A stretch of 64,000 nucleotides of DNA from Bispira polyomma (taxonomy: Eukaryota): contig OZ287755.1 of assembly GCA_965649765.1 (NCBI GenBank), positions 6,386,001 to 6,450,000 on the forward strand. The letters are read 5' to 3'. The position numbers and the translations under genes are program-made. Shown one piece after another: positions 1 through 63,300 of this stretch. The first letter of the stretch is position 1. The number at the start of each line of letters is the position of its first letter. The notes beneath the pieces are model-generated. The model was not told where the DNA came from, did not search any database, and worked only from the letters and a program-made list of their open reading frames with translations.

Positions 1-470
1 TTAGAGAGCAGGATTTTGTTTTCAGATAATAGAAGCTTAATACATAAAAAGAACAATTGTACTATAAAACAATAGAAAATCAATAAATTTAGGAGAGTGT
101 AAATAAAATATTAAAATTGAAATTATTTGGATAACAGACGTTGATATAATAGATAATAGTTTTACTGTAGTATTTATCGCTTTTGTTTCAAGCTTCTTTT
201 CAAATATGTGTGGCTTACGCAAGTGTTGAATAAAACTATAGACCAGATGTTATTTCTCTCAGGTCAGAGTCACAACTCCCTCCCAATTGTTATTTCACAG
301 CAAGACCATTAGCTTGTATGTCTATATACATTTAATGAATAGTTATGCCTGACATAAACTTCCTCTGACAAGATGTTCATAATAGATAGTTCACAAAAGT
401 TCCTGGTAGTGGCCGTATTCTCAAAAGATCCCGAGCTCAAGTCAGACTTAAAGCTCTAATGCATATCTAT

Positions 471-851
471 GGACATATTTTGACGCATGCTATGAGAAAT
501 GGTATATTTTGGCACATGCTATGAGAAATGGCAGATTTTGGCCAATGCTATCAGATATAGCAGATTTTGGCCCATGCTATGAGACATAGTATATTTTGGT
601 GCATGCTATCAGAAATGGCATATTTTGGCGCATGCTATCAGAAATAGCACATTTTGGCCCATGCTATCAGAAATGGCATATTTTAAAGCAGACTATCAAA
701 AATGAAATATTTTGGAGCAGGCTATCAGAAATGACATATTTTAGAACAGGCTATCAGAAATTGCATATTTTGGCGTATGCTACCAGAAATGGCATATTTT
801 GGCGCATGCTATCAGAAATGGCATATTTTGGTGCACGCTATCAGAAATTGG
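471..851. repeat. 29-bp minisatellite, about 13 copies (unit GCATGCTATCAGAAATGGCATATTTTGGC)
   Basis: Unit visibly repeated with point variants. ORF 596..892 is its translation. Confidence 0.9.
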
Positions 852-2112
852 ATGTTTCTGGGTTTTTTTGTCCCATGTTGACTCAGACTTAAATATATTA
901 GTACATATATTGCCTTAATTGGTCAATAGACTTAACATCATTATAACTTACAAAATTGAAAGACCCTGATTATCAAGCAACATGAATTGCGATCCTTGGG
1001 AGAACTTGATACTGTTTGAAAAAAAGTAGATTCCTGAATAGGCATTTCAGTAAACTCGGGCAATATTTACAAAATAGCATGAATTAATCACTGATCTAGA
1101 TTTAAAACAAAGTCTTAGCTCTTTTGTGAATACTGCCCCTGTTCCACATTTACAAAGTAACCCACGATTGGTCAAGGGTACACCAGAAGTTTCTACATTA
1201 GAAATCTTGTTTGTGTCAGTTTTTTTTGAAAAACCGTTTTTAGGGGAAAAAGAACACCACAAGGATATTTCATATGAATTTACATGAATTATAAGACCAT
1301 TTTGAGAAGATTGTGACAATAATATATACACAATATATAAAAAAGAAGATCAATTTTTTTCTTGTTTAACCACTTCGTCCTTAATATAACATATTTAAAA
1401 CATGTTCTGACAAATACCTGGAAACTATCGTCATGATCAATAAAATGACATGTACAAAATCCTTTAATCTCTGCACTCTAGGTCTATATATTAAACCGAC
1501 AGTAATAGGTCAATTCCCCTTATTACCTGAGCCTTTTATATGGTTGACTATTGGGAAAACAATTATATGATATAACACTTCTAGTGGTAACATAAGAAAA
1601 ATTGTCCAATCTTTTTAAAACTATTCCAATAAGTTTATCTTCATTTTTCTATTTATTTTTTTGGCATGCATCTGCAAAATGTTGAAAAAATAATTAAATG
1701 TGTATATTCAATGAAACTTAAAATTTAAAAAAGACAATAAATTGAGAAGGAACACTTGCTTCTTTACAGTACCTTCTACATTTGGTCAAAATGGTAGTTT
1801 CTATATTTAACCACAAAAGAGTTAAACACCTCTGTCTTGGTGATTAGCATAAAACACTGGTGGATATATGTACATCTATTCTATAATGTAGACATGCATT
1901 CATGCTTTACGTGAATCTGTATCAGTAATGGAGTACTGAAGTAAAAATATCAGGTGATACACTTTAAGATGCTCTCATTGATACGGTTACGGTTGAGATC
2001 AGTTATTCATAAAACGTAGCACGAAACCTCTTTGAATTGTCTTCAGTTCCACGCCCCCAGATAATTAGAAGTTGTGAAGTTAAAAAAGAGATTTGAACCA
2101 AAGAGTAATTAT

Positions 2113-10149: not shown

Positions 10150-10931
10150 TAATACTATATACTATTTTATATATCAACCTTAACCACTGGGGACCGAGTT
10201 GGCCAAGATTTACTCTGTCTATTCACCCACACATTATCACTTTCTTTGTTAGGTGGGACAAGACAATATCTTTTTACTTTAAGTGTTATTTTGTTTATTT
10301 TTGCGATTTTTAAGTAAGATATAATAGATTTATAAAAATACAGAACAAAACAGATAAGGAAAAGCACCATCAAGGGGAAGTCCACACAGCGAAAGGCAGT
10401 AGAAGGAGAAGTAAACGACAGTTTGGTCACAGGCTTTAAGGTTCAATTTGCATCTCCCCTGCCCTGCTTACACAGCACGTTATCCAGATCCCCGTAGATA
10501 CCAGAATCAATTATATCACTCCAGCTCACGTAGCAGCCTCTCACATTCCAGGCGGTCACCAGCCCATAAAAGCTACACGTATACCAAGTTCGGATAGTCA
10601 TGTCTGTAATGACAGTGATTTTGGACAGACTGGTTAAATCTAATGACATAATGAATAGCTGCCTAGATAGGATGGAAGCATGTGAGGTCCAGAGTTCTAC
10701 TCTGACAGTTTTTTTGGAATGTGATGTATACCAAAACAACCCGATAGTTAAATATGCTACGACAAGTAACACTCGTCAATCTGACAACGCAAATAACGCA
10801 AACACAACCTATTGCTCTTGCTGAGTACACAAGTGATCTAATGTGCCTTCCCGATGTTCAAGCCCTAGTCAACCAGGCTAACAAAATTTCACATGCCAAA
10901 ATGAGTTATGCCACCATTCATGTGATCAATT
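10150..10931 (+). mobile_element. 5' part (gag relic) of an old decayed DIRS-order element E1, interrupted by element A
   Basis: ILDRLVKSNDIMNSCLDRMEA and LPDVQALVNQ resemble gag of element D ([27 protein letters not shown]). The left boundary is approximate. Confidence 0.5.
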
Positions 10932-11445
10932 GCTAGGTAGCACGAAGGTGCTAGTGGGTTCAGTGCTTCAGGTAACATAATACTAGCATGTAACCCTCAC
11001 CAATTGACCCCAAGATTCATTGGTGTCACCTGCCCTCATTAAACCCCAGCCTGGCGCCAAAATACACATTTGCCTCACTTTAAAAACTAAATCTGAAGTG
11101 GCAAGACGCCATTTTAAGCAAATACACAAAAATAAATGTTGAACTTTTTCGTGGATCTTAGTCATTTTAGTCTTTATTTTAGTATTTTAATCAAATAGAT
11201 GTCTACAGAAGGACTCGACTGTGCTTATGGATCCAGTGGTTGCAGCGCTCCTGTGATATAATAACTCTGTTTTGAGTCTTGTGATTATTGGCTTCAACTT
11301 GTTGGGGCAATATTAGAGGGACGTTATCAGGCTTTGTATACAGTTTTCAGACCATCCTTCGGTATTTTATTTCAAATTCTGAAAAAATAAACCTCTAACT
11401 CAATATTCACAGGTATCAAAACAGCCGTATCATATATTTATACAG

Positions 11446-12441
11446 ATGGCACCGAGAAAAACATATTATTGTGAGGCATGTGGTGGACACCATCAAAAGC
11501 CTATAAACGAGAAATGTAAAGTGGTATTAAGAGAAATGGACAGTGTTTCTGTAGTGAACAGTGATACAAACTCAGGGAATATCTCGTCAAATGAGGTAAA
11601 CCTGTTGATTCTAAAACAACTAAATGACTTGAGCTCACGCATGGACAAATATGAACAGAATAGTGTTACGGAGCCCCGTCGGACACACACAAGTGTGATT
11701 CCTGTCAGCGTACAGGCGTCACAGCCAGCGACAGCAGTGGCAGCATCCAGTGCACCCCAGATAAGTGAGACTGTGGTGCCGTCCTTGCAGACCCTGAGGC
11801 AAGCTACAGACCTACAGGTGGCCGTGGATAGCAGACTGCGAGAGCTACAACAAGTTAATGAACAAGGTACGTTCTGGTCACAAAGAGGCGGTCAGGAAAC
11901 AATATGGGTGAAGCGTCAGGTACCCTGGCCCCAAAACTTTATCCTAGGTGGTAGCAATAAGTCCAGAATGTCCTACGATGCGTTGTCAATGGCCCAGTGG
12001 GTGGCTGGGTTTAGTTCCATAATTAGAGAAGAAACAAACATTGAAACAAAAAACCATATGCTTGAGTATATGTCTGACCTTATGGAAGACTCTCACGATT
12101 TCACTTGGGTAGCGGCCAAAGGTAGCCATGCGGTGTTAACATGTAAGATGGAAGAGGGGAAATTATCTTGGCAAGACACCTCAAAAATTGATAGGGTGAG
12201 AAGGGCTCATGCCCAAAAGGTTTTGGGGGGTCAAACTTCGGGCTCTGGGGTAACCAAGAGAAATAGTGAGAAATCCATCCCGTGTAAATTCTTTCAGAAG
12301 GGTTCGTGTCCCCAGAAAGGGGACCACGAGACCAAGGGACAATTGTATGCGCATGTATGTGCAAACTGTCATGCCACAGGCCGTTCTTTCCCACACTCGG
12401 CTAAAGACTGCCGTAAAAACAGCAGTGCAAAAAACGAGTAG
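11446..12441 (+). CDS. gag: Gag-like ORF1 of element A
   Basis: 331 aa. N-terminal CEACGGHH..C and C-terminal CKFFQKGSC..H..HVCANC..H..C Cys/His fingers. Homologous ORFs in C and D. Confidence 0.88.
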   Translation: MAPRKTYYCEACGGHHQKPINEKCKVVLREMDSVSVVNSDTNSGNISSNEVNLLILKQLNDLSSRMDKYEQNSVTEPRRTHTSVIPVSVQASQPATAVAASSAPQISETVVPSLQTLRQATDLQVAVDSRLRELQQVNEQGTFWSQRGGQETIWVKRQVPWPQNFILGGSNKSRMSYDALSMAQWVAGFSSIIREETNIETKNHMLEYMSDLMEDSHDFTWVAAKGSHAVLTCKMEEGKLSWQDTSKIDRVRRAHAQKVLGGQTSGSGVTKRNSEKSIPCKFFQKGSCPQKGDHETKGQLYAHVCANCHATGRSFPHSAKDCRKNSSAKNE

Positions 12442-12463
12442 GGCACTGCAGTATTGCAGTGCC
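12430..12463 (+). promoter_or_regulatory. Predicted -1 programmed ribosomal frameshift signal
   Basis: A_AAA_AAC in gag frame, 5-nt spacer after the heptamer region (GAG TAG), then a perfect 9-bp stem GGCACTGCA-GTAT-TGCAGTGCC. Pol is in the -1 frame and open from the slip site. Confidence 0.8.
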
Positions 12464-15038
12464 AAATAGTAAATGTTCTAAAATCACTGTGAAAAGTGTA
12501 AAAACGAGCAATGAAAATGGACCAAATCACAGAAGTAAAAGTGTACATAATAAGGCTTATACTAGAACCAGAGTGATGCAAAATAGTGTATGTGTACATA
12601 ATGTCAGTGACAATTGGAAAGCAGACTGGGCAAGGTTTCAAGGCAAAACATATGCCCAAATACTTTCAAATGGTTTCAGCAAAATCACAGGTACTTTGGA
12701 AGGGAAAAATAAGCAAAGGGTGTGCAATACTTCCAATTGTCACTTAACATGTTCAAATGTCGAAAAGCCACAGTCCAGTGGTTCTTGTTTAAAGGGTCAT
12801 AAAAGTTGTATTTACAATGTACCTAAGCCACAAGTATATGGGTCTAGGAAAGAAACCAATAATGTTTTTTCAGTGCAACACACCGACACACAAGTACAAG
12901 GTGTAAAAAAATCCCCCAACACAATGGTGAGTCCTATTGTGAAACAAAGTCGCACCTCCCTCCAAGAACAATGGCAAAGTGTGAAATCCAAAATTGGGAG
13001 CAACAATGTGGGGACTTTTCATAACAGATTTCTTCCATTGTCGTTGGTAAATGAGGGGGATGGGGACACACTTGGTGACACTGAACACAATGAAACCTTA
13101 AGTGCGGTTCACACTAATGCGACAGGTTCAAAAAGGAAAACCTTAAGTGTGACTCACACTAGGGCAAACAACCACTGTCGGCAGGGTAGTAACACAAACC
13201 CGGGCTTAAGTAGTGTAATTCAAAACTCAGACAAGTATGACTTACAACTGCATGCCAGACCTAAGACTAAAGAACTCCTGAAGTTAGCCTGTACCAATAA
13301 ATGTTTTCAAAATTGGGATACCCAAACACAAGACAAGTTTGGCTTTATTCCTTTGGGAGACCTCACAATTCCTGTATTTGATGCAAGAAATAAATCAACA
13401 GCTCCTTTGTTTGACATACATGAACAGATCAAAAATTCAAATCTTCCAAACTTTAGGGGGGAACAAATTCAAGTAACATCTCAGCTTAATGCTGACAGAT
13501 GGGACTTCTACCTCCAGGGTTACTGGGATAAGCAGTTGCCTTACCTCATCAGATATGGGTTCCCATTTGACTTCGACAACAATAAACAATTATCACATAA
13601 AGAAGAAAATCATAAGTCAGCAACTGATTTCCCAGATGATATCAGGGCTTATCTAGATGAAGAAGTTAAATTTGGGGCCATGTTGGGTCCATACTCAGCA
13701 CCACCATGTAGAGACTTACACATATCACCGTTTATGACCAGAGAAAAGCCTGGGGCAGTCCACAGAAGGGTAATAATAGACCTCAGTTTCCCACAGGGTA
13801 GTTCGGTCAATTCAGGGGTAGCCAAAGATGAGTATTTGAGTACTCCTTTTGTGCTAACCCTACCTACAATAGATACCATTACTCAAAAAGTGCGTCAATT
13901 GGGACGGGGTTCGCTTCTATATAAGACAGATATTAGTAGGGTCTTTCGTCACGTCAAAATGGACCCTGCGGACTACAACCTTATGGGTCTCAAACATGAA
14001 CAGTACTTCGTTGATACTTGTCTCCCATTCGGATTTCGGCACGGAAGTGCCATATTCCAGCGCCTAAGTGACGCTGTACGCTTTATCATGCAACGTCATG
14101 ATTGTGACGTCACTAACTACATAGACGACATTATAGGCTATGGCGTTCCCTCTAAAATACAGTACTCTTTTGATTTGTTACATCATTTACTCCATGACCT
14201 AGGTTTTGACATAAGTGAAAAGAAAATTGTGCGTCCAAGTACACAGGTAGTCTGCTTAGGGGTGCTTATAAACACACTAGATTTCACAGTATCAGTTCCT
14301 CAGGAAAAACTACAAGAAATCATGGGGTTATGTCAATCCTGGCAAGGCAAGCGTACATGTAAAAAGCGTGACCTACAGTCATTACTAGGCAAATTACTAT
14401 ACATCTCAAAGTGTGTCAAAGTTTCAAGGTTATTTCTCAACAGAATGTTAGAGGTACTAAGGTCAGCTTATAGTGCACATGTAATAAACCTAGAAGTAGA
14501 ATTCTGTCAGGATCTTAACTGGTTCTGTACATTTTTACCCACCTTTAATGGCAAAGCTTTCTTTGACCATCGCCCAATCACTGATTGCATAGAACTAGAT
14601 GCCTGTCTTGAGGGCCTAGGGGGCCGCTGTAATGGCCAGGTATACAAAAAGCAAATTCCCAGAGGCTACAATAGTTACCACATAACTCACCTTGAAATGC
14701 TCAATATACTTGTCGCAGTTAGGCTATGGAAAGACCAATGGAGAGGCAAACGGTTATTAGTACATTGTGATAATGAGGCTGTGGTTACAATACTTAACTC
14801 AGGTAGAACTCAAGACCGTACCTTGGCGGCCATAGCCAGAAATATCCATATGGAAACAGCAATGGCTGACATTAGCTTTAGCACAAGTCATATTTTAGGA
14901 AAAAATAACGTTGTGGCTGACCTATTATCTAGGTGGCATTTGTATTCAGACAGCCAGAGTAGGCTAGCTAAGCTCATAGTTGAACCGGAATGGGTAGAGG
15001 TAAAAGATAATACATTAAACATAGACTGGTCTATTTGA
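12459..15038 (+). CDS. pol: Reverse transcriptase / RNase H (Pol) of element A; no ATG at the ORF start, -1 frame to gag
   Basis: RRVIIDLSFP, KTDISRVFRH, LPFGFRHG and YIDD (RT); LDAC, HLEMLN, HCDNEAVV and NVVADLLSR (RNase H). Confidence 0.95.
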   Translation: MPNSKCSKITVKSVKTSNENGPNHRSKSVHNKAYTRTRVMQNSVCVHNVSDNWKADWARFQGKTYAQILSNGFSKITGTLEGKNKQRVCNTSNCHLTCSNVEKPQSSGSCLKGHKSCIYNVPKPQVYGSRKETNNVFSVQHTDTQVQGVKKSPNTMVSPIVKQSRTSLQEQWQSVKSKIGSNNVGTFHNRFLPLSLVNEGDGDTLGDTEHNETLSAVHTNATGSKRKTLSVTHTRANNHCRQGSNTNPGLSSVIQNSDKYDLQLHARPKTKELLKLACTNKCFQNWDTQTQDKFGFIPLGDLTIPVFDARNKSTAPLFDIHEQIKNSNLPNFRGEQIQVTSQLNADRWDFYLQGYWDKQLPYLIRYGFPFDFDNNKQLSHKEENHKSATDFPDDIRAYLDEEVKFGAMLGPYSAPPCRDLHISPFMTREKPGAVHRRVIIDLSFPQGSSVNSGVAKDEYLSTPFVLTLPTIDTITQKVRQLGRGSLLYKTDISRVFRHVKMDPADYNLMGLKHEQYFVDTCLPFGFRHGSAIFQRLSDAVRFIMQRHDCDVTNYIDDIIGYGVPSKIQYSFDLLHHLLHDLGFDISEKKIVRPSTQVVCLGVLINTLDFTVSVPQEKLQEIMGLCQSWQGKRTCKKRDLQSLLGKLLYISKCVKVSRLFLNRMLEVLRSAYSAHVINLEVEFCQDLNWFCTFLPTFNGKAFFDHRPITDCIELDACLEGLGGRCNGQVYKKQIPRGYNSYHITHLEMLNILVAVRLWKDQWRGKRLLVHCDNEAVVTILNSGRTQDRTLAAIARNIHMETAMADISFSTSHILGKNNVVADLLSRWHLYSDSQSRLAKLIVEPEWVEVKDNTLNIDWSI

Positions 15039-16021
15039 TTGTAGGTCTCCCTCCACAACTAGCATCTGTGGCAGCCAAGGCTGCCTCCAGGGCCCACCAA
15101 GCTTTTAGACCCTCCACACAAAAGGCTTACACACATATGTTTAGAGTTTTCCTTGCTTTCACCTGCTTCACAAAGGTTAGATTACAAAATATTACTCCCT
15201 TATTCATACTGGCATTCTTGGAAGTGCTTGTTACAAGTAATGTCTCAAACTCATCTATAGCCAACTATCTTTCAGCAATAAAAGCAAAAATGGTATTATT
15301 TGGGCTGGACACCTCTTGCTTCGCTGACCACCGTATTAAATATTACCAAAAAGCAATAGTGCTCAATAAACCATTTAGGGCAAAGCTAAAAAACATCATT
15401 GATATTCCACTGCTCACAGACATAATCCTCACATGTGACTCAATGTACATGGGCCAGATATTCAAGGCCCTATATTTGGTAGCATTTTATTCTTTTCTTA
15501 GAATTTCCAACCTTGTTCCACATAGTGTGGCTTCCTATTCCCCCCTTCAACAGCTTGCCAGGGGTGACATCTTGTTTGCACCTCCTGGCATGCACATTAT
15601 CATTAAATGGACTAAAACTCTTCAATCCAAAGACACAATCAGAACTTTTAAGTTACCTCACCTTGGCCTATCTCCCCTGTGTCCCGTAAGGGCTGTAAAA
15701 AACTTGCTTGCCATCACTCCTGGTACCAATAATTCACCATTGTTTCAGTTTAAGTTAAATCTAAAATGGATCCCACTTACAGACTCAAGAGTTAGGACCA
15801 ATCTGCACACCATTCTTACTCGTCTACATTGTCAAACCTCAAACATAACCTTTCACTCCTTCCGGCGTTCAGGTGCCACTTATGCATTCAATCATAATGT
15901 ACCCATTCAGGACATCCAGGCTCATGGCACCTGGACGTCGGACTGTGTGTGGAGGTATATTAATCAGGATCATAACACCACTGACCAGGTAGCGCTGGCC
16001 TTCAAATCAGCCCTTTCGTAG
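15035..16021 (+). CDS. Tyrosine recombinase of element A (TTG-called start; probably entered by splicing at 15045)
   Basis: Catalytic R (FLRISN), K (KWTKT), HxxR (HSFRRSGA), W (GTWTS) and Y (VWRY). Confidence 0.95.
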   Translation: MIVGLPPQLASVAAKAASRAHQAFRPSTQKAYTHMFRVFLAFTCFTKVRLQNITPLFILAFLEVLVTSNVSNSSIANYLSAIKAKMVLFGLDTSCFADHRIKYYQKAIVLNKPFRAKLKNIIDIPLLTDIILTCDSMYMGQIFKALYLVAFYSFLRISNLVPHSVASYSPLQQLARGDILFAPPGMHIIIKWTKTLQSKDTIRTFKLPHLGLSPLCPVRAVKNLLAITPGTNNSPLFQFKLNLKWIPLTDSRVRTNLHTILTRLHCQTSNITFHSFRRSGATYAFNHNVPIQDIQAHGTWTSDCVWRYINQDHNTTDQVALAFKSALS

Positions 16022-16608
16022 TTTTCTACTCACTAGTTGGGGTTTGGGGTTTCCTATAACAAACTTTCACATGTTGCATACTACAAATATTACATGTCTA
16101 TATTTAGGGCCACCTTATATTTATATATTATATTTATTTTACTATTTTACTTATATTGTATACTTAAATATACCTTCCATTTTACTTTAAGTTTACTTAA
16201 ATTAAAAAACTTTTAACTTTCTTACAGTTTACTTCAGTTAAGGTCACCATACGTGACCCCAAAAATTTAACTCAATCTGGGTTAACTTCAAGTTAAGGTC
16301 AACCTAAATGACCAAACCTTGTGGTTACATCAATTTAAGGGCAACTTAATTAACCACAATCTCAACTTAAATTAACTTTATCTTGGTTAAAGGTCACCAT
16401 AAAGTGACACCAAACCTAATTTCAAAATTCATAAAAAATTTATGTTAAGGTCACCTTAAGTGGCCCACACTTAAACTCTTTTAAGGTGGCCCTACCCAGT
16501 ATGTACATATATGTAGAATTATTAACATAGAATTAAAACATTAATATTTCCCAATTGGGTTTCTTTTATTTCTTGTCTTATCTCCAAACACTCACATAGA
16601 GGCACTGT

Positions 16609-26573: not shown

Positions 26574-26607
26574 GTACAAACTTTATCTTTAACTCACTTA
26601 GTTTTCC

Positions 26608-29600
26608 GGGAAATACTAGCCAAGGCTAAAACTGATGAAACTTTTCAAAAATGGAATAGTCAAAATCGGGCCAAATTTGGTTATATTCCTCTGGGGCCAT
26701 TAAAGAACCCCATAACTGATCAGGAAAACGAGTATAATTTTTCAACTCTGCAGCTCCACAAAGAATAAAAGACAGCAATAAATTCAATATTATGAACAAG
26801 CAGTTCACTGTCGAATCGGAACTGAACCATGTGCGCTGGAAAGAACTCCTAAAGGGTTATTGGGACACCCAATTACCGTTTTTAATCCAGTATGGTTTTC
26901 CCCTTGATTTTGACAGGACTTGTAAATTAGCACATAAAGAACACAATCACCACTCGGCGTGTGAATTTACAGATGACGTCAAAGCTTACCTAACTGAAGA
27001 GAAAAATCATGGTGCCATATTAGGCCCTTTTAAAGAACCCCCTATGAAGGATTTACATATATCCCCGTTTATGACAAGGGAAAAACCTGGCGCCCCTCAC
27101 AGAAGGGTTATTATAGATTTAAGCTTTCCTCAGGGTCAATCAGTTAACGCAGCTACACGTCCAAATCAATACCTTGGTTCAGACTTTCTGTTAACATTAC
27201 CCACCATTGACGATGTCACCAATGAGATTATAAAACTGGGTAGAAATGCCCTTATCTATAAGCTAGATATAAGTAATGCATTTTGTCACGTTAAGCTAGA
27301 CCCAGCAGAATATGACCTACTAGGCCTCAAACTAAACGAATACTATGTAGATACGTGCCTGCCATTTGGCTACAGGCACGGAAGTGCTATTTTCCAGCGC
27401 CTCAGTGATGCAATGCATTTCATAATGTGCGTCAGAGGCTATGACGTCGTCAACTATATCGACGACGACATTGGGTACAGCAACGCACCTGACGTCCATG
27501 ACGCCTATAAAACTTTACAAGAACTGGTCAAAGATCTAGATTTTGCGATTAGTGCAAAAAAGCTTGTGCCTCTGACCAGCAGGGTAACTTGTCTTGGCGT
27601 CCTTATTGACGCGAACAACTTTTCAGTGGAAGTTCCACCTGAAAAATTAAGTCAAATTATTCAAATATGTGACATCTGGGTAGATAAACAGCAATGCTCC
27701 AAAAGAGAATTACAATCACTGCTGGGCTCACTTTTCTACATATACAAGTGCGTAAGGGTTGCCAGAGTTTTTCTAAATAGAATGCTCGACGTCTTGCGAA
27801 AGGCTCATGACACAAAACAAATTAGGCTTGAATTGCCCTTTTTCCAAGATCTAAATTAGTTCACTAAATTTGTAGGCAAATTCAATGGCAAAGCATTCTT
27901 TGACCATAGCCCGGTCAATGACCATATTGAACTAGACGCGTGTTTAATGGGTCTGGGTGGCAGATGTAATAACATAGTGTACACAAAGGAACTTCCTCTC
28001 AATTACCTAGAAATGACCATAGTGCATCTAGAAATGCTGAATATATTGGTAGCCTTGAGATTATGGCAAGGTATATGGCAAGGCAAAAAACTGGTTATTC
28101 ATTGTGATAACGAAGCGGTAGTAACAATTCTGAACTCAGGGAAAACCATAGATCTAACCCTGGCAGCAATTGCACGCAACATCTTTATGGAAGTAGCCAA
28201 AGCTGACATTTATATCAGGCCAGTCCACATCTTAGGTAAACTTAATGTAACAGCAGATCCGTTATCTATGTGGCACAAGGTTATTCACCCAGAAAATAAA
28301 TTACAGCAATTAGTAACAGAACCATGCTGGGTGACTGTCCCAGATCAAATGTTGGCAATTGACTGGAGTATATAATTTTTTTCAGATTTATCCCCCTTGG
28401 TGCGGTGGCTAGCAGGGCAAGCGGCTCACACAGCTCATCAGGCTTTCAGGCCTGCCACTCAGCAGGCCTACCAAAATATGTTCAAGGTTTTCATTGCTTA
28501 CACAGTATTTGTAGGCGTCGATATGATGCAGATTTCAGTTTTATTTGTTCTTTCATTTCTGCAGGTTCTATTAGCCAGTAAAGTATCCCAGCCATCAATT
28601 GCCAACTATTTGGCTGCTATAAAAGGAAAACTTAGCCTATATGCCTTTGACACAAGTCCATTTGCAGATCCACGTATAAAATACTTTCAAAAAGCAATGA
28701 TACTACAAAGACCTTTCAAAGCTAAAATCAATAAAGTAATTGACATCTCGCTGTTAACTCAAATAGTACAAGCCTGTGCTTCAATGTACATGGGCCAGGT
28801 GTTTAAGGCAGCCTATCTACTAGCTTTTTTTTCCTTTTTAAGAATTTTCAACCTGGTTCCACACACAGTGGCTACCTATAATCCGCTAGAGCAGTTGGCC
28901 AGGGCTGATGTGTTATTTGCACCCCCTGGGCTTCAACTTATTATTAAGTGGTCCAAGACTCTCCAAAACAGAAATTCAATCAAAATTCTTAAAGTTCCAC
29001 GTATACACAACTCAGTCTAGTGCCCAGTGGTAGCCATAAGAAATTTCCTTGCTATTTGTCTCAAATAATTCACCTCTGTTTCAGTTTAAGGCATTAAATG
29101 GATGGGTGCCTCTCACGGATTCAAAACTAAGACATAACCTCAAGCAAATTTTGTCAAGACTTAGTCTAAATCACTCCCCAATTGCCTTTCATGACTTCAG
29201 ACGCTCAGGGGCCACCCTGGCTTTCAATAACCATGTCCCTCTCCAAGAAATACAAAGCCATGGCACTTGGACATCTGAGTGTGTCTGGAAATACATAACA
29301 ACAGATCATAACGCCTCAGACCAAGTAGCCCTGGTCTTTCAAAATTTGCTTTCTCTCCCTACTTCCTAAGTTGGGTTTGGTGTTGTTTTTACTTGAAAAT
29401 ATACATAAAATAATATACTCATGTTATCAAGGCTAAGCCCACCTGTATCACAAACTCAAAACTGAAATAAAATAAAAACTCTATTTAAGGTTACCCTAAA
29501 CTTAAAACACCATCTTCAAGTTAAGATAGCCTTAAACTCAAACTTAAATTAAGATGACCTTATACTCGAAAACTTAATCTCACGTTAGGGTAACCTTAAC

Positions 29601-30619: not shown

Positions 30620-32210
30620 TTAGATAAAAAAAAGTTCACACAATGTACCAAGGTAGGATGATAGTGTAAAAGAATATCATGATACAGCAAAGTTATGGCA
30701 TGGTATTTGGAATGAATGTGGTTGTCCACATAGTGGTCATGTTGCAAAAATATGTAGCCACACCAGGGCTAAGTACTATCAGGCTGTACGTGTGGATAAA
30801 TGAAACTGTGACAACATTATCACTGAAAAGATGGCTAAGAATTTGCTTAATAAAATACACATAACTTCTGGAGAGATGTAAGACAGGTCAAAAAAGCAAA
30901 AACTTCTATCCCAACTTGTGTTGATTATTCTACTGGTGAAACACAAATTAGCCTTTTTTTCTGTGAAAAAATTAAGCCTTTGTATAATTCAGTGTCTTAT
31001 AGTATTACAGATATGTGTGATATTTATAAAGATATTTATGTAAACATAAAGAAGAAGTGTTTATGCTCCCAGTATAATAATCATTGTATTAATGTAATTG
31101 ATATTCAACAAGGTTTGTCAAAACTAAAAAGTGGACAAAATGATGGTCTTACAATGTGTACTTCTAACCACCTGTTAAATGGATCTGTTAAACTAAGTAT
31201 TTTTACATAGCTCTTTTATTTAGTGCAATGATAAAACCTGGTTTGACCCCAAGTGACATGTTGCTGTTAACAGTTATACCCATTCCAAAAAGCAAACATA
31301 AATCTTTTAACTCCTCTGATAATTAGATGGCCATTGCTTTCAGCAGTATACTTGGTAAGTTACTAGATTCAATAATTCTTAAAAAAAATAAAACAGTATT
31401 CTTAACTTCTGACTAGCAGTTTTGCTTTAAAAGTAAACATTCAACCTTAAATTGTTCATTTGTAAAACAATAAATCATACAATATTACATAAGTAACCAA
31501 ACTAATGTGTATACTATGTTACTGGATTCAAGTAAAGCATTCGATAAGGTACATTATTGGAAACTATTTAAGTTGTTATTAAAAAAAGAATTGTGTCCTG
31601 TCACAGCCAGGTTCCTGGCTGTTATGTATACACATCAAACCCTTCGTGTTAATTGGCGTAATAGTTTATCTAGCACATGTACAATAAGTAATGGTGTAAA
31701 GCAAGGTGGTGTGCTCTCCCCACTATTATTCACTGTATATATAGATCAATTATTAATTCAGTTGAGAGATTCTAGTTGTGGATGTCATATTGGGATTGAA
31801 TACAGCGGCAGCTTTAGCTATGCTGATGACAACATTCTTTTAAGCCCCACATTAACTTTGTTACATATGATGCTTAAGGTATGTGATAGATTTAGTGCTG
31901 ACTACAATGTATCATTCAACCCTGATAAATATCAGTTATTACACTGTAAAAAGTCACAGGCTATAGATGGCTTAATGTTTAATAATATATTTATAAAAAC
32001 TAAAACAAGTGCTGACCATCTTGGTATTGTTCTTAGCACCTATGATACTAATGTAAATATAAAGAATGCTACAGACAAATTTTATGTCTGCATTAATAAT
32101 GTAATGTCTTTCTTTTCACATGTGAATTCCAGTTCGAAGTATAATTTATTTAAAACATGCTGCATGTCTCTTTATGGTGCAGTTCTGTGGGATTATACTA
32201 GTAAAAATGT
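30620..32210 (+). mobile_element. Decayed LINE (non-LTR) RT region, 5' part, interrupted by element C
   Basis: LLDSSKAFDKV, GVKQGGVLSPLLF, YADD and CMSLYGAVLWD in ORF 31507..32262. Confidence 0.88.
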
Positions 32211-35200
32211 GCAAGGTAGCGGGAAGGGGCTACCAAGGTCAATGCTTCAACAAGTATACTAGCATGTATCCCTTGACCAATTGACCTGAATTCTCATTGG
32301 TCTGCACTGCCCTCATTTCCCCCAGCTTACCGCCAAAAACCTCAGATGCTTCACTTGAAAAACTGAAACTGAAGTGGCTAGACGCCATCTTAAAAAATAT
32401 AACAAAAATATTATGTGCTGGACTTTTTTCATGGATTATAGTGATTTTAGTTCTTATTTTACAGTTTTACTCTACTGAATTGGGACGATTGTGCTTATGA
32501 ATCCAGTGTAGCAGTGCTCCTGTGTCTTATTACTCTGTTTTGAGTCTTGCGATCATTGGCTTCACTTGTTGGAGCAAAAGTAGAGGAAAGTTATCAGGCC
32601 ATTCATTCTAACTTATATTGAAACGTTGATTCAAAATTCTGACAAATTACCTCTCACCAATAGTCGCACGTATCCAAACAGCCGTATTCTATATCTGTAG
32701 TGTTATAGCTCCCAGAAAAACTTATGACTGTGAGGCGTGTGGTGGACATCACCAAAAGCCTATAAATGATAAATGTAAAGTCGTGATAAAGGAAACGGAC
32801 AGTATTTCCATGGTGAACAGTACAAACTCAGGTAGTGTCTCCACAAACGAGATCAACCTACAAATATTAAAACAGCTAAGTGATCTGAGCTCCAGGATGG
32901 ACAAATATGAACTTAAAAGCAATACGGAGCCAGCTCGTGAACAGACAACGGTGCAACATATCCCAGTGTCGGTACAAGCAACAACAGTTGCAGGCGCTGG
33001 GTCAACTCCATTGAACGACATAGTGGTTCCTTCACTTCAGACGCTCAGGCAGTCCAGTGATCTTCAGGCTGCAGTTGATGCCCGCCTGAGGTAATTACAA
33101 CAAGTTAACTAATCAGGTACGTTCACAATGTGGCGATTCAGATACTATTTGAGTTAAAAGACAGGTAGCCTGGCCCCAGAACTTTATCCTAGGGGGTAAC
33201 AATAAGTCTCGCTTGTCATATGATTCACTATCAATGGCCCAATGGGTTGCAGGTTTGAGTGCCATGATTAAAGAAGAAGCAAATTTAGAAACCAAAAACC
33301 AAATGCTCGAACACATGTCAAAGCTAATGGAGGATTCTCACGATTTCTCTTGGTCAGCAGCTAAGGGAAGTCACGGTGTATTAACATGTAAAATGGAAGA
33401 GGGAAAAATAACCTGGGCAGATACTGCAAAAATTTATCGTGTTAGAAGGGCACATGCCCAGAAAATTTTAGTAGGTCAAACTGGGCCCGTGGGCTCAACC
33501 AAGAAAAGTAGTGAGAAATCCGTCCCCTGTAAATTTCCAAAAAGGAGACCATGAAAACAAAGGGCAATTATATACACATGTGTGTTCCAATTGCTTCACC
33601 ACAGGTCGCTCTTTCCCACACTCGGCTAAAGACTGTAGGAAAAACAACAGTGCAACAAACGAGTAAAAAGTCGATTTTCAGGTCCTGACAGTAAATATAA
33701 TGTTAAAAGTTTGAAAAACACAGAAAGTGTTAATACAAATGTCATGTATAGGGCCAGTAGATTGGTAAAAAGTAACATGTGTGTAAATGGGGAGAGCGAA
33801 AATTGGAGAGCGGACTGGTTTAGAATAAAAGTCAAAAGCTATGCTCAAGCGGTCTTAAGGGGTGTCAGCTCAGTTAAAGGTAAAACATTTAAAGGGGAAA
33901 ACAAACCACCCAGTATCTCCAACTATCGCTCACCCCACATAAATGTCAAGAATCTGCAGAGCAGTGTAAAAAGACATAAAATGTATGGTCGTCAAGAATT
34001 CAGACCAAAAAGTGTGGAATCAAATGTACATAGGATTATTTCAGCAATTGACGTGTCACCAGTTCATAGAATTGGAGGCTTAACAAGCTCCCACCAGAGA
34101 GAACAAAGTGTCAAAAAAACACCCTCCTCCCCCCCCCCCCCCCCCCCTCCCATTGTAATACAAAGTCCTCGAGGTTGTTTACCAAAACCCATTGTTCAGA
34201 AAGTTGCACTTTCCAACTCACACAATTGGGAGGTGTTGGCACTAATTGGGGTAATAACACTAGTCGAGACCACAATAGATTTGCCCGCCACTAACACTCA
34301 CTGAGGGGGGATGGGGAAACACATAAAGAGGAACAAAGCAATCCCTCAAATGACACCCAAGTTAAACACACTAATAGCACAACCAAAATGACAAAGTCAA
34401 GGTATAACAAGTCTACCAAACCTATTCAGCAAGGGGATCAATGTGAAACAAATGACAAATATGACATGCAAAGCCTAAAAGCAAGAAACTTATGAAGTTA
34501 GACAAACAAAACAAGTGTTTCCAAAATTGGGGCAGACGCCTGATAAATTTGGCTTTATTCCTTTGAGAGACTTAACAGTCCCCGTGTTTGATCTCAAAAA
34601 TATTAGTTCTGAGCCAGTATTCAACATGCACAAAAAAATTAAAAACTCTAAAATCCCCAACTTCATGGGGGAACAAATTCAGGTAGAATCCCAGCTTAAA
34701 GCTGATAAATGGGATTTTTACTTACAGGGCTATTGGGACACCCAATTGAAATATCTCATAAGATATGGCTTCTGGACATCGACAAAAACAATCCCTTAGT
34801 CCACCAGGAAGAAAACCATAAATCAGCTAGGGATTTTCCTAATGACATTAACGCCTACTTAGAAGAAGAATCAAGATTCGGGGCCATGTTGGGTCCCTAC
34901 TCAGCTCCCCCTTGTGCTAACCTACATGTATCACCATTCAGGACCCGTGAAAAGCCAGGCGTACCCCATAGAAGGGTCATAATAGATTTGAGTTTCCCTC
35001 AAGGTTACTCAGATAACGCGGCCGTGGCCAGAGACAAATATTTAGATACACCATTTGTGTTAACACTCCCAACAGTGGACACTATTACTCAAAAAATACG
35101 TCAGCTTGGCCAGGGGTCCTTATTCTACAAAACAGACACAAGCAGGGCCTTCAGGCACGTAAAAATCGACCCTGCAGACTACAATCTGCTAGGTCTCAAA

Positions 35201-48300: not shown

Positions 48301-51300
48301 TATGTTGAGACATGAACATAGCTTCAGAAAAGAAAATTCATTATTATAAAATATAATATTAATACCTTATACCTTAGACCTTTTAACAATTGAGGAATGC
48401 GCAAAGGCGTTAAAATTGTTACCAAATAACATGCTGTTTAAAAGTTTTCAATACTCATTTCAAAATAAAACATTAAGTCAAGCACAAAAAATAGATTTAT
48501 TTAACTTGATGTCCAAAGGACAAAACAATTTAAGCTATTTGTCAAATTGGATTTTCAAGGTAACACGTGTGTGGCAACCATAAATGTAACAAAAGCTACA
48601 AATGTAGCTATAACCACAAATGTAATAATTTCCAGCCACATATGTAGCAATGTAACCACAAGTGTAGCAATGTCCAAGCACAAATATAGTAATCTCCAAA
48701 AAAAGTTATAGCCACAAATGTAACAAATTGAGAAACCACAAACGTAATAACCACAAATGTAGTAAATCTCCAAACTGCTAATGTAACAAATAGATTGGCC
48801 AAGAGTAAAATGGTTGTATGGCCTTGAAACATTATAAAATGCCTTTTTTATTTTTTAATGGATCATTTAAACATTGGATTATAATCACAACCTTCCTCTA
48901 TTTAAAAAAAGAATCATTGACAAAAAAATAAATTTATGATCTTCTGTTTGTAAAACCCTAAACTATAACTTTAAATTTTAAATAGTGTGTATTACTGTCA
49001 TCTGTGTGTATTACTTAAAATTACCCCGTAATACTATTAAAAATATATATATGCGTATTTAAAGAATTAATAATATATTATCTTGTTTTTTTGAAGATAA
49101 TTTTGTGTTTTTGTGCATAAGGCTGTATTTATGTAGTATTGCACACTGTGCTACTGTTTTATACCCAGCAGTGATTAGAGGGTGCAGCTCGGTAGAAACT
49201 GATGGGGGGGGGGGGGAGGTACGGGCGGGGGGACCAATCTAATATTCAGTTCTAAGCTTTATACACATCCAAAGATATGCTGTAAGTTTTGTTAATACAA
49301 AATTCCCTCCACTTTATTCTCTCACAAATTGATCAAAAGTGGTTATATCTACCTTGAACCATATTCAGGTAAATAAAACTCTAAAGCTAATTATCTGTGT
49401 TAACAAGTCTGTGCTTCTCTAGTTTCGAACTTGCATTGTGACCTCGCAAAAGACCGAAGCGGATAATACATGGCAATATTTAAAACTGCTCCTAAATCTA
49501 CAAAAGCCTTAATTCTGGATAGTTCAGTCCTTGTCTCCCTATAGATGTCTCTACCTTTTGTACTATCAGTTCATAAGTCAAAACGGCATTAAAACAAAAA
49601 CCTCTCATGACAAGAAACACATTGGCCCTTCACAAAAAAACCTATAGAGACAAAGAACAAACCATTACCGCCTCATCCTTTTATTTTGAAACCAAGCAAA
49701 TAAATAACAGTCAATGCCCTTGTATAGACATCTGTTAAATTATTTCCCCTTTAATTTAGACAGCATTATAATAAAATTCACATTTCCTAAACTTTGTAAA
49801 CCGCTTCAGGTAGAGATATTTTAAATAAGGAAAATCGTCTCAAAAATTCCACTTGAATAGGTTTTTAAATTTAATGGGGATTACATTTAGAAGGGCTACA
49901 TATTATAAAGGGTAGATATATTTAGAAGGGCCTTTGTATGTTTGAAATTTTAAAAATTATTTTTAATCTTGTGTGTGGGAGCAAGTATATTTTGTTTTGT
50001 GTGTAAGTGAGAAAAGTTATTTGTGGTGTCAGTTTGCTTCTTGTCATGAGGGTTTTTTTAATATTATTTTTTCAACAATAGCTTCATGTTTTTGGATGAT
50101 TTGGGTGGCCCTGAAAAGGGCCGATTGGTGGTCACATGACCAACGGAGTTGGAGAGGAGTGGCTAGTTGTCAGTGGTGCTCGCTGCTGATGAAATTGTGG
50201 TGGTTATGGTGTCTGTTGGTGACTGTATGTCAGCCATATCCCCGAAGCCTGCAGGAGTCTGAATGTTGTCATAGCTGACGTCTGGTGTGTCTCAGCCTCT
50301 GGCGAATAAGGAAGCTCCCAAGGTATTCAGGATGTCACAGTCCACTGACACTGGGTTCACTAACAATGGGTTATTGTAGTACGCTCCACTAGTCCCACTA
50401 GTTCCATTAGTCGCACTGCCTCAAGGTATCCCTTGCTGGCTCAGAAGACCACTGGTGCTGAGAAATAATGGTAATGTAAATAATGTTTATGTTGTCACAT
50501 GTGGCCTGGGCTGCTCATAAATATAGTGTCCCTGTTGTGGTGGTTGAGGAATGTAAGCTGGAGGTGCCATCTGGTACAGCTTGTTGCTGTGGCTGAAACG
50601 CTGGTGTTGAAGCTGCTGCCCTTTCCTGGAGTGTGGTTATAAGGTTGAAAGACTCCCTCCGGAAGTGCAGGAAGGAATGTTCACCACAGCTTCCTCCTGC
50701 TCATCAGTTAACAACACAGCCCTTATCTTCTTCTGTTTTTGACAGAAGGCCACTGCCACCTCCCTGTCCGGTGTGTCCTATGTTTCACGCATATCCTGGG
50801 TATCCTGGTTCAACTGGAAAAAAATGTTCTAGGGTGTCACTGTCTATAGCGGACTGTTACTTTTCTGGAATAATGTCCTCATCATCTGTGTCTCTTACTT
50901 CAAACTCTCTCTCCTCCTCCTGTACTGGCCGTGTCCTCCTTTTCTTGATAGCTCTCCCTTTTTTCGGCATAATTGCAATATGTAATAAACTTAGTCTCAC
51001 CAATAATTAAAATAAAAAATAAAATCCTGTTATAATCATCTATAATGCAATTCTTAAAATAAGAAATAAAATCCTGTTATAATCATCTATAATACAATTC
51101 TTAAAATAAAAAATAAAATCCTGTTATAATCATCTATAATACAATTCTTAAAATAAAAAATAAAATCCTGTTATAATCATCTATAATATAATTTCTGAAC
51201 AAATTGGCAATCGATGTGTCTGAAAGCTTGGATGGATCTGTTTTATACAATCCACTTTCTGCCCCCGATTTGCACCCGAGTTTTCATTTTCACTCCAGAG

Positions 51301-60300: not shown

Positions 60301-63300
60301 GGAGAACAATGGTAGTCTGGAGTTTTAACCTCCTTAACTGGCCCTAACATAGCACCTAAATCACTTTCTTTCTTAAGATATTCACCCACGTCATAGGGAT
60401 ACTGCAAAGCAGAGTAATGATTTTTGACCTTAACATTGCCTAACCTATCAGGTGTTCTTAAGCATAGTGGAAATCCAAATGTGATGTATTGAAGCAGTAA
60501 CTTGTCAGGATAATCCTGTAGCATATATTGCCAAGCTTGTGTGTTTAAACCAGATCTCAATGGTATTCTGGCTTGTTTGTAATTTGGTACTCCTGTCTGC
60601 TTTATTACTTGTGCAATTGCAATCATGTCTTCTACTATTCTAATATGTACTGGTTGCCTATCTGGACCTTGAAATTTGAAGTCAGTGTCTGATAAAGCAA
60701 GGAACCCTACAGTCTTATTTTTGTCATGTATGTCTGTGATATTTCTGTTCACAGGTTCACTAGCCTTAAGCATATATGTCATTTGGGAAAAGAATTCTGA
60801 CGACGCAGGGTGAGTATATTTTTCATCGCAATAACTTACCATGCTCTTAGTAGGTTTTACACTACTATCTTCGGTCTGTACCGAGTTGTCTGTCACATCT
60901 ACATTTCTAACATTACAATCTGTATTTTTACCTTCACAGCATCCAATCAATTTATCAATTAAATCTTCTAGATGCTCAGTATAGTTTTTACCACTAGACT
61001 TTAAACACTCCATATCTTTCTTGTAGTAGTGGAAAGCATTACTAGCTTGTTTCTGTTGTTGCACTGATTTACATGTGATTTCATCAAATTATACATATGC
61101 CAGGTCGTTAACTCTGTTGACCCAGATTTCAAAAGAATTAATAACAGATAACATACCGTTAGGTTCAAATTCAAAGGGAGTGTAGCTTTCTTGTCCTGTC
61201 ACTTCATCAGTCTGGCTATTATAAAAGCCGTTTTAAAATTTTTAGGGCCCCCAATGTAAAGTACTGGCAAGCTTTTTGATGTGGTCAAACAAAATAAGTA
61301 CCAATTGGTTACATTAAGTTTTACCTTTATTGGTCCCCATTCATGACTGCCACTCTGAATGTGGACTGTATGATTTTGATTTTTACAATTTTTTATTTTT
61401 ACACAGGTGGTCGAGCTACACTCCCCTGTGGTCAACTTGACCATGCCTTGTCCCCTGCTATGTGTAAGCAATTGCTGGAGACTTTGGACAGCTCCAACGT
61501 CACCATACGTGCTTCCTGAAATGTTCTCACATAATACATTTGACATGACATTAGTTTTATGAATATAATTTTCTCTTACATTGGCTTCCCTAAATGATAC
61601 CTCAGTTCTCTTACTATGGCTATATTTGTCATTAACCTTATTTGCACTTTCATAGTTCTCATTAACTCTAGTATTTACAGTATCTTTCAATGTTCCATAT
61701 TGCTTAGCTGGTTGTCGAATCAACAATTCCTAACTACTTTTTACATTTTGGTTATCAGATTGCTTGCTGGAATTTGCCTTAAAACATTTAAATTCAGGGT
61801 GGTAAGATTCTTTTCCTAGGACTTTGGAACAGTACCAACATTGATGTTTGTAGTTTCCATGGTCATTTTTGTGACTGCATTTACCGTTGTTAAAGAGCTT
61901 ACATATTGTCCTGTGTTCAGTGGTCTGGGAGGTACCTTGATGCTGATTGTTAACCATGGCCAATTGGGACGCGCTCATCCGGTTCAGCGCCCATTGCGTG
62001 TGATCCTGCCACGTTAAGCGCCCCTCCTCGACTTCATGCATATTAGAGGCCCATGCGGTTCTCACTACCGGCCATGGAAGTGACGAAGAGTCTCGCAATG
62101 CGAAAACAATCTGGGTCATCATATCCCTCATTACTGTATTGTCTGCAACCAGCAGAGCGTTGGATATTTGGCCTGCTGCCCATTGTGGGAGTGACAGATC
62201 GTCATAGGCGGGACGTTTGCGCGCAGAAGTGGAGACGTTGGTTGCTAAGCAACCCTCGTTCGGCCAACGATACCTAGGGTCTACTGTGGCAACATCGGTA
62301 GAATTAAATCTGCCAGACTTAACTCTCTGGGTGGTCTTACCTTCAGATAGTTCTCTCTGAGCTAGAGATTCGTAGCTAGCCAGCTGCCGTGTAACTGCTG
62401 ACTGAACATCAGGCATAGAGCGTAGAGTGTGTAAATTGGGAACAATTCCATCCCTGTTATACTCGTGTGGTGTAGGTCCCAGTTGTGGCTGCGGAAATCC
62501 CCGACCATCTCTGAAACCGACATCTGAAGGGGGAGTGTATCTGGGCAGTGGTAAACTGTTAGCATTATTGCTGGCCCGTCCGAGAACAGAAGCACTGTTC
62601 GTGGTTTGACTAGTACAGGTACCCGAGTTACTGCCCGAGGCCGTTTTCGCTTCTACTTTCTCCAGCCTGGACTCTAATCGTCTTAGAATTGCCAACATCT
62701 CATTGGGAGGATCAGCCCCTGCGTGGCATGTAGCCGGTGGTTGTATGAATTGTGAATCTACCTGGAACGAGTCAGCACTCGACGGTCGAGTTGTAGGTTC
62801 CTCTACTTCATTAAGGTGGCTATGAAGATTGCGAACAATATTGTTAGTTACCTGTAGTTCGTCTGTCCCAGTGGTAGGTTTTGACACCTTTGTTTTACGG
62901 CTCGCTGGTTTCTTTGGCTAAACAGGAGTCTTTTTTGTTCTACCCATTTCAATTCACACACATATCCAATAGCACCTTCATTATAGTATAAAACAGGCTA
63001 AAATGTAACTTTTAAAAACATAAACTAAAAACCAAGTTCATATAACTTTCCATGTAAGTTAAAATATTTTTGGTTGTTGTTTCTTCAATGTCGAATTTCA
63101 ATATGGAGGTGTAGCCCCAGAAAAACCGGGAATAGCTAATTAATTAAGGAATTTGATTGGCCCTTGTAGTTATGATAGAATGCACTGAGGATAGCTATAC
63201 CTAAAATTTTTATTAAGGTCAAGTGATATAATTAACGTGGACTGAGATAGCAGTCCCCTGAAGTAGACGTGCTTGACAAACTCACCTACGATATAATCAG

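What the first reader, a model, noticed from the sequence alone, without database searches (positions are those of the whole stretch)
12430..12463. Textbook -1 ribosomal frameshift cassette joins gag and pol in element A
Seen: gag ends GCA AAA AAC GAG TAG, which contains the canonical X_XXY_YYZ heptamer A_AAA_AAC in frame 0. Directly after the stop comes a perfect 9-bp hairpin GGCACTGCA-GTAT-TGCAGTGCC (12442-12463). Pol lies in the -1 frame, is open from the slip site (..RVGHCSIAVPNSKC) and has no ATG at the start of the ORF. Established: heptamer + short spacer + stem is the retroviral and IS-type -1 PRF signal. Together with the splice, one transcription unit would yield Gag, Gag-Pol (frameshift) and Gag(N)-YR (splicing). 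Caveat: decayed copy C has GCA ACA AAC and lacks the hairpin.
Basis: partly seen in the sequence, partly recalled or inferred. Interest (0 to 1): 0.8.

Follow-up and report, generated by a model that had tools for sequence, protein, structure and literature searches.

The report
Frameshift signal in Ngaro retrotransposons
A jumping gene in this large eukaryotic genome ends its first gene with a slippery sequence and a hairpin that are kept in over a thousand copies and likely make ribosomes step back one base to produce its reverse transcriptase, while related lineages in the same genome appear to use a leaky stop or a forward step instead.

Summary
The cassette is real: A_AAA_AAC (12429-12435), a 6-nt spacer holding the gag stop, then a hairpin (12442-12463). 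Pol is open in the -1 frame for 869 codons from the slip site. The host is a Ngaro-type tyrosine-recombinase retrotransposon (gag, RT/RNase H, YR; split direct repeats; no methylase). The heptamer is kept in 53 of 59 diverged copies (Gag 61-72% identical) while flanks, loop and stop identity vary. The Lys and Asn codons are locked where synonymous sites elsewhere drift. A sister clade (Gag 41-46%) keeps heptamer and stem core at the same distance, with one base pair flipped. There are 1,188 exact genome-wide matches and 0 controls. Copy C lost its hairpin by deletion; siblings keep it. Programmed -1 frameshifting is very likely (0.9) but was not measured, and the conserved stem is 7 bp, not 9. 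The mechanism is textbook. What I could not find in print is a defined signal in a YR retrotransposon, or that two other clades in this genome join gag to pol by an in-frame UAG-G (likely readthrough) or a GUU-stop site (likely +1 shift). Splice signals for Gag(N)-YR are conserved; no RNA evidence was obtained.

The parts
10931..11134 (+). A repeat (A1), 5' end of the element
   Evidence: Repeated right after B1 in 9 of 20 young copies
11446..12441 (+). gag ORF from ATG to TAG; Gag-like protein with C-terminal CCCH and CHCC zinc-knuckle-like motifs, ending K-N-E
   Evidence: weak zf-CCCH_4 hit E 0.055
11864..11872 (+). Predicted phase-1 splice donor inside gag (last exon base 11866)
   Evidence: In-phase donor at the same place in 12 of 14 A, 10 of 10 D and 13 of 13 E representatives
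12429..12435 (+). Slippery heptamer A_AAA_AAC in the gag frame
12436..12441 (+). 6-nt spacer containing the gag stop
   Evidence: Stop is TAA 37, TAG 11, TGA 8 among the 56 diverged copies with a located cassette
12442..12463 (+). Hairpin: 9 bp here, conserved core 7 bp with a 6-nt loop
12429..15038 (+). pol in the -1 frame from the slip site: about 270-residue variable linker, RT, RNase H; no methylase
   Evidence: Pfam RVT_1 E 1e-8, RVT_3 E 8e-5
15036..15044 (+). pol stop followed by the predicted splice acceptor (last intron base 15044; predicted intron 11867-15044)
15045..16021 (+). Tyrosine recombinase exon (ORF 15011-16021, no start ATG)
   Evidence: Pfam Phage_int_SAM and Phage_integrase hits
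16063..16607 (+). B repeat, 3' end; this copy lacks the A2-spacer-B2 tail of full-length copies
33654..33666 (+). Copy C junction: altered heptamer, hairpin deleted, in a decayed copy
61730..61732 (-). Element D gag stop TAG followed by G; member of the clade with pol in frame

Best explanation
This is the gag-pol junction of a Ngaro-type retrotransposon, where a conserved A_AAA_AAC and a hairpin 6 nt downstream likely make a minority of ribosomes slip back one base, skip the gag stop and make a Gag-Pol fusion carrying reverse transcriptase and RNase H. Shown: sequence, frames, conservation, one compensated base pair. Inferred from viral precedent: tandem slippage of tRNA-Lys and tRNA-Asn when the ribosome meets the stem; most ribosomes stop one codon later and release Gag. 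An efficiency of roughly 4-13% is extrapolated from synthetic 6-bp (3.5%) and 10-bp (13%) hairpins in PMC3203594. The stem's inner six pairs are probably frozen by a double constraint: they pair, and they encode H-C-x-x-A-V in pol, so each synonymous base faces a fixed non-synonymous partner. The recombinase is probably made separately by a 3.2-kb splice joining the N-half of Gag to the YR exon.
For: Heptamer unchanged in 53 of 59 diverged copies; nucleotide identity between the 14 subfamilies is 57-77% upstream and 45-65% downstream. Across 12 subfamilies 1 of 46 invariant Gag residues keeps one codon, but the heptamer's Lys is AAA 12 of 12 and Asn AAC 12 of 12. 9 of 9 diverged copies with long pol ORFs are -1. 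The first pol ATG wanders from codon 3 to codon 381, about 130 codons before YxDD in L076. Sister clade E has the stop moved one codon, yet the stem core lies the same 8 nt from the heptamer in 22 of 25 loci; pol overlaps in -1 in 9 of 13 fetched copies, and in none in another frame. Stem pair 15:34 is G-C 19, C-G 14, U-A 2, G-U 2, unpaired 0 of 37. Clade F has the heptamer in frame in 23 of 25 loci, pol ORFs of 1173-1209 codons in -1, and a different downstream sequence. 1,188 genome-wide matches, 0 controls. Gag homologs in other assemblies end K-N or K-N-x in 33 of 77 A-like cluster representatives against about 5% expected, and 0 of 20 D-like ones.
Against: No measurement of frameshifting and no transcript. 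The inner six stem pairs show no double-sided change in 37 rows, and within clade A none of the 8 pairs does. The one compensated pair reflects only two or three events on the tree. The outermost pair is unpaired in 22 of 37 rows, and several subfamilies fold at only -10 to -13 kcal/mol. No conserved structure beyond the stem was predicted. The diverged copies were chosen for open gag frames (60 of the roughly 125 diverged hits). DNA around the outside homologs was not seen.
Confidence: 0.9

Rival explanations
1. Pol is made by splicing, not slipping. The AG inside the 3' arm of the stem (GCAG|TG) is in phase 1, like the YR acceptor, so the gag donor could join Gag(N) to pol in frame.
For: The site is in the right phase, its four bases are kept in 21-22 of 22 subfamily representatives, and a conserved phase-1 donor exists.
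Against: The region upstream is purine-rich: T fraction 0.17 and 1.9 competing AGs, against 0.47 and 1.0 at the YR acceptors. It explains neither the locked heptamer, the complementary 5' arm, the compensated pair, nor clade F, which keeps the heptamer without this site.
Confidence: 0.04
2. Frameshifting happens on the heptamer, but the palindrome is conserved mainly as a sequence-specific site (for the recombinase, Gag, or pairing with the element's ends), not as the ribosome's roadblock.
For: In clade A the element's 3' end reads the same 7 bases as the 5' arm. Every clade has an inverted pair with an ACTG/CAGT core across the B-A junction. The stem core does not covary and the loop stays 6 nt.
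Against: The terminal motif changes between clades (E, F, D, G differ) while the stem core is the same in A and E. Clades D, F and G lack this stem at the junction. The fixed 8-nt distance from the heptamer survives a moved stop codon.
Confidence: 0.12
3. Pol is translated on its own, by reinitiation or from an internal AUG.
For: A few subfamilies have an AUG overlapping a UGA stop (first Met at codon 3; L104, L111).
Against: Most subfamilies lack it. The first AUG lies at codon 283-381 of about 815 in the L074 subfamily, while the frame is open from the heptamer.
Confidence: 0.03
4. Polymerase slippage on the A run adds one base in some transcripts and gives the same fusion.
For: A run of six A's is present; the product would be nearly the same.
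Against: The run is short and is not selected for length; what is fixed is its frame, the final C and the spaced stem.
Confidence: 0.03

Closest known systems
Viral -1 tandem-slippage signals with a simple hairpin (HTLV-2 gag-pro, HIV-1 gag-pol, Cocksfoot mottle virus)
   Same: X_XXY_YYZ heptamer, 5-9 nt spacer, 3' stem (PMC3542737, passages). A_AAA_AAC is among the shiftiest heptamers on mammalian ribosomes (PMC5009743, passages). HTLV-2 uses a perfect 10-bp hairpin giving 9% (PMC3203594, passages).
   Different: The conserved stem is shorter (7 bp, 6-nt loop), the gag stop sits inside the spacer, and the host is a YR retrotransposon with no protease or DDE integrase seen.
-1 gag-pol junctions of animal LTR retrotransposons
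   Same: 28 of 51 animal retroelements had pol in -1, many with classical heptamers (2003 survey as summarised in PMC5009743, passages).
   Different: That review has no occurrence of 'DIRS' or 'tyrosine recombinase' in the first 300,000 of its 449,034 characters, which is all that is held.
Ngaro retrotransposons (order DIRS)
   Same: gag, RT/RH, YR order; A1-ORFs-B1A2B2 split repeats; no methylase (PMC9210276, PMC8547959, PMC4157794, passages).
   Different: A 553-nt spacer lies between A2 and B2. Poulter and Butler 2015, as quoted in PMC13003380, guessed frameshifting for the pol/YR overlap; here the YR frame relative to pol varies (-1, 0, +1) while splice signals are kept, so the shift is at gag/pol and YR looks spliced.
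Type III readthrough (gammaretrovirus UAG-G) and closterovirus GUU_stop_C +1 site, as matches for sister clades D and G
   Same: Clade D: pol in frame after TAG-G in 41 of 50 loci. Clade G: G/CTT-stop in 17 of 22 loci with pol in +1. Motifs as described in PMC3542737 and PMC13517186 (passages).
   Different: No conserved structure was found after the clade D stop. The base after the clade G stop is mostly T, not C.

Membership tests
Programmed -1 ribosomal frameshift signal | X_XXY_YYZ heptamer in the 0 frame | tested here: met
   A_AAA_AAC in the gag frame here and in frame in 54 of the 56 diverged copies with a located cassette
Programmed -1 ribosomal frameshift signal | 5-9 nt spacer to a 3' RNA structure | tested here: met
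   6 nt to the 9-bp stem, 7 nt to the conserved 7-bp core
Programmed -1 ribosomal frameshift signal | Structure supported by covariation | tested here: inconclusive
   One pair is fully compensated (0 unpaired of 37); the six inner pairs show no double change
Programmed -1 ribosomal frameshift signal | Overlapping -1 ORF open from the slip site, without a conserved start codon | tested here: met
Programmed -1 ribosomal frameshift signal | Nucleotide conservation beyond protein need | tested here: met
   1 of 46 background codons fixed against 2 of 2 in the heptamer
Programmed -1 ribosomal frameshift signal | Measured frameshifting that depends on heptamer and stem | not testable with these tools
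   Needs a reporter or proteomics
Ngaro retrotransposon | gag, RT/RNase H, YR in this order on one strand | tested here: met
Ngaro retrotransposon | Split direct repeats A1...B1 A2 B2 | tested here: met
   9 of 20 young copies carry A2 after B1 and a second B; the window copy has A1 and B only
Ngaro retrotransposon | No methyltransferase domain | tested here: met
   No such Pfam hit at E 0.1; pol ends 33 residues after the RNase H-like match
Ngaro retrotransposon | RT groups with named Ngaro references | not tested
   No reference sequences were available through the tools; a PAT lineage that lost its methylase is known (PMC4157794)
DIRS1-like or PAT-like retrotransposon | Methylase domain after RNase H; inverted terminal repeats for DIRS1 | tested here: not met

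The most novel reading that the evidence does not exclude
Ngaro-type retrotransposons in one genome have switched among all three classic ways of crossing the gag stop: -1 slippage on A_AAA_AAC (clades A, E, F), readthrough of UAG-G (clade D), and +1 slippage on a closterovirus-like GUU-stop site (clade G), while keeping one splice that makes a Gag(N)-recombinase fusion. That would give a natural, many-copy comparison of recoding modes in one cytoplasm and a testable animal case of the GUU-stop +1 site, whose mechanism a 2012 review called a mystery.
Probability: 0.6. Interest if true: 0.72.

Novelty: new member of a known kind. Interest (0 to 1): 0.55.

Why it matters
How YR retrotransposons express three genes from one transcript has been a guess. 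This supplies a concrete, conserved and easily tested signal for Gag-Pol and moves the proposed frameshift from pol/YR to gag/pol. It also matters for annotation: more than a thousand copies in this genome have a programmed break that pipelines read as decay. The three junction types in sister clades show that the recoding mode can be exchanged in evolution.

Tried and rejected
RNA evidence: no RNA holder listed. Three contig sets of unknown kind covered the element, non-coding parts included, and listed no joint at the predicted splice (13 joints not shown); neither result counts for or against. Spliced retro-copies: none among 30 of the 40 scored YR loci. Other species at DNA level: no relative in viral contigs or metagenome contigs; 66 pattern hits in metagenomes had 0 of 66 gag, pol or YR homology. 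Pseudoknot: no consensus pairing beyond the stem; no dedicated pseudoknot search was run. Readthrough in element A: frame 0 closes 16 codons after the stop. Structure after the clade D stop: none. The idea that the stem copies the element's terminus: weakened by clade E. The Gag tree did not finish and the RT tree is the quick version, unrooted, with groups defined by how they were fetched. The protein atlas did not answer. [quoted passage not shown]

Full report
Observation. Element A has three long frames on the + strand: gag 11383-12441, pol 12417-15038 and YR 15011-16021. Gag ends GCA AAA AAC GAG TAG. The heptamer is 12429-12435, the spacer with the stop 12436-12441 and the hairpin 12442-12463. 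The stem folds at -17 kcal/mol, z -3.6. Pol is in the -1 frame and open for 869 codons from the heptamer; its first ATG is at codon 49. It is the only such heptamer-plus-stem among 409 heptamer-like sites on the + strand, and 100 shuffles gave none (criteria chosen after the fact).

What the element is. [quoted passage not shown] Young copies define the element as 10931-16607. Nine of 20 continue with a second A repeat, a 553-nt spacer and a second B repeat; the window copy has only A1 and B. Gene order, split repeats and lack of methylase match the Ngaro definition (PMC9210276, PMC8547959, PMC4157794; passages). I had no named reference for a tree.

Young copies say little. The family has 37 listed copies at 93-100% (a lower bound). 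In the 30 fetched loci the heptamer is AAAAAAC in 27 and AAAAAAT in 3.

Diverged copies are the test. I fetched 60 of the roughly 125 diverged Gag hits, chosen for open gag frames; one had no pol hit and was dropped. In the other 59 (Gag 61-72% identical) the heptamer is AAAAAAC in 53, AAAAAAT in 2, AAAGAAC in 1, and my pattern found no cassette in 3. The stop varies: TAA 37, TAG 11, TGA 8. They fall into 14 subfamilies with the window copy, 57-77% identical upstream and 45-65% downstream. All 9 copies with a pol ORF of at least 800 codons have it in -1, overlapping the gag end. Among invariant two- and four-fold Gag residues in 12 subfamilies, 1 of 46 keeps a single codon, whereas the heptamer's Lys and Asn are AAA and AAC in 12 of 12. 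The first pol AUG ranges from codon 3 to codon 381, so it is not a conserved start.

The stem. Within clade A the arms are nearly invariant and show no double-sided change, which alone does not prove pairing. Two outside Gag proteins used as queries brought up further clades. In clade E (Gag 41-46% identical, sister to A in the quick RT tree) the stop follows the heptamer directly, yet the stem core lies the same 8 nt downstream in 22 of 25 loci. In an ungapped alignment of 21 A and 16 E rows (L220, L366 and L379 left out as visibly broken, identical rows merged) the pair at the base of the core is G-C 19, C-G 14, U-A 2, G-U 2 and never unpaired; the outermost pair is unpaired in 22; the six inner pairs are 97-100% paired without double change. 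That is two or three independent events, not 16. The frozen core is explained if pol needs H-C-x-x-A-V here, since each synonymous base pairs with a fixed one (inference). A pattern of heptamer, 8 free bases and core matches 1,188 places in the genome against 0 controls; the narrower clade A pattern matches 435. Clade F (Gag 34-37%) has the heptamer in frame in 23 of 25 loci, pol ORFs of 1173-1209 codons in -1, and a different downstream sequence.

Copy C. Its siblings L340 and L341 have heptamer and stem; C and several other decayed siblings carry different deletions through the palindrome. The caveat does not weaken the case.

Outside this genome. Only proteins were reachable. Of 43 homologs from unnamed ENA assemblies, 25 keep the last zinc knuckle and 20 of these end K-N or K-N-x; a few run on into the stem's 0-frame translation. 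Of the best 150 cluster representatives, 97 end within 45 residues of the knuckle: 33 of 77 A-like and 0 of 20 D-like end K-N or K-N-x, against about 5% and 3% expected. Their species and DNA were not seen.

How it likely works. Most ribosomes end at the gag stop. A minority slip back one base on A_AAA_AAC when they meet the stem and continue through the linker, RT and RNase H. A_AAA_AAC is among the shiftiest heptamers on mammalian ribosomes (PMC5009743, passages); spacing of 5-9 nt is typical (PMC3542737, passages); synthetic hairpins of 6 and 10 bp gave 3.5% and 13% (PMC3203594, abstract and passages). The efficiency here is extrapolated.

The splice. A phase-1 donor lies at the same place in gag in 12 of 14 A, 10 of 10 D, 13 of 13 E and 2 of 2 G representatives; none was found in the searched stretch of 5 F copies. 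A phase-1 acceptor follows the pol stop. Among 27 A-clade rows with a long YR frame (the window copy included), the YR frame relative to pol is -1 in 10, 0 in 7 and +1 in 3 (one with a doubtful acceptor); 7 could not be scored. A fixed pol/YR frameshift, as guessed by Poulter and Butler 2015 (seen only as quoted in PMC13003380), cannot serve all of these; a splice can.

Other junctions in the same genome. Clade D, which includes window element D, has pol in frame after a single stop: TAG-G in 41 of 50 loci, with pol ORFs of 788-947 codons directly after it in 4. Clade G ends gag in G/CTT-stop in 17 of 22 loci, with pol in +1 for 679-958 codons in 9. These resemble type III readthrough and the closterovirus GUU_stop_C site (PMC13517186 and PMC3542737, passages). 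Each junction type sits in its own RT clade, but the groups were defined by how they were fetched and the tree is unrooted.

Rivals. A splice into the stem's own AG is in phase but has a poor acceptor context. A sequence-specific role of the palindrome is suggested by its identity with the clade A terminus and weakened because clade E changes the terminus but not the stem. Independent initiation fails on the wandering AUG.

What is in print. Eight full-text searches found no paper describing a slippery site, readthrough or splice in a YR retrotransposon; 'DIRS', 'retrotransposon' and 'slippery' occur together in 0 papers. I saw passages only of PMC3266345, PMC3783388, PMC6681497, PMC7192593, PMC2632668, PMC9341512 and bioRxiv 2021.01.25.428050, none with such a signal. 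No supplements were opened. The founding Ngaro paper and the 2015 review are not held and may already mention the gag/pol heptamer, so novelty is provisional. Earlier notes of this scan report readthrough and a Gag-YR splice in protist Ngaro elements; they are unchecked leads.

Verdict. Real, conserved and very probably functional; a textbook mechanism in a host group where I found it undescribed. Interest 0.55, higher if the three-mode picture is confirmed.

Noticed in passing
window 61730-61732 (-); L172, L174, L175, L177: Clade D Ngaro-type elements have gag and pol in one frame across TAG-G, with a loosely kept short motif about 9 nt downstream; likely readthrough.
   Followed up: partly
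L424, L427, L428, L431, L434-L436, L444, L445: Clade G ends gag in G/CTT-stop with pol in +1, like the closterovirus +1 site.
   Followed up: partly
L420-L423: Clade F has A_AAA_AAC seven codons before the gag stop and what looks by eye like a longer, different stem about 10 nt downstream; its gag donor was not found.
   Followed up: partly
window 16599-16607 and 10959-10972; L124:6960-7010: An inverted pair flanks about 30 nt across the B-A junction, and its sequence covaries between clades A, D, E, F and G; a candidate recombinase or replication signal.
   Followed up: partly
L124:7171-7724: 553-nt non-coding spacer between A2 and B2 in full-length copies; about half of the young copies lack the A2-spacer-B2 tail.
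   Followed up: partly
L337-L344, L352, L066, L086, L199, L209: Decayed copies repeatedly carry small deletions through the palindrome, as expected of a hairpin-forming DNA site.
   Followed up: no
window 11400-11448: The gag ATG is directly preceded by an acceptor-like AG, so a 5' UTR intron is possible; L122 and L135 have gaps in this region.
   Followed up: no
window 26607-29354 and 29764: Element B is a 5'-truncated member of the L074 subfamily (pol 59% identical to A), without its gag-pol junction.
   Followed up: partly
window 31474-32262: A 262-codon open frame just upstream of copy C whose sequence looks by eye like a non-LTR reverse transcriptase fragment; not searched.
   Followed up: no
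window 416-915 and 50954-51235: Tandem arrays with 29-nt and 47-nt units.
   Followed up: no
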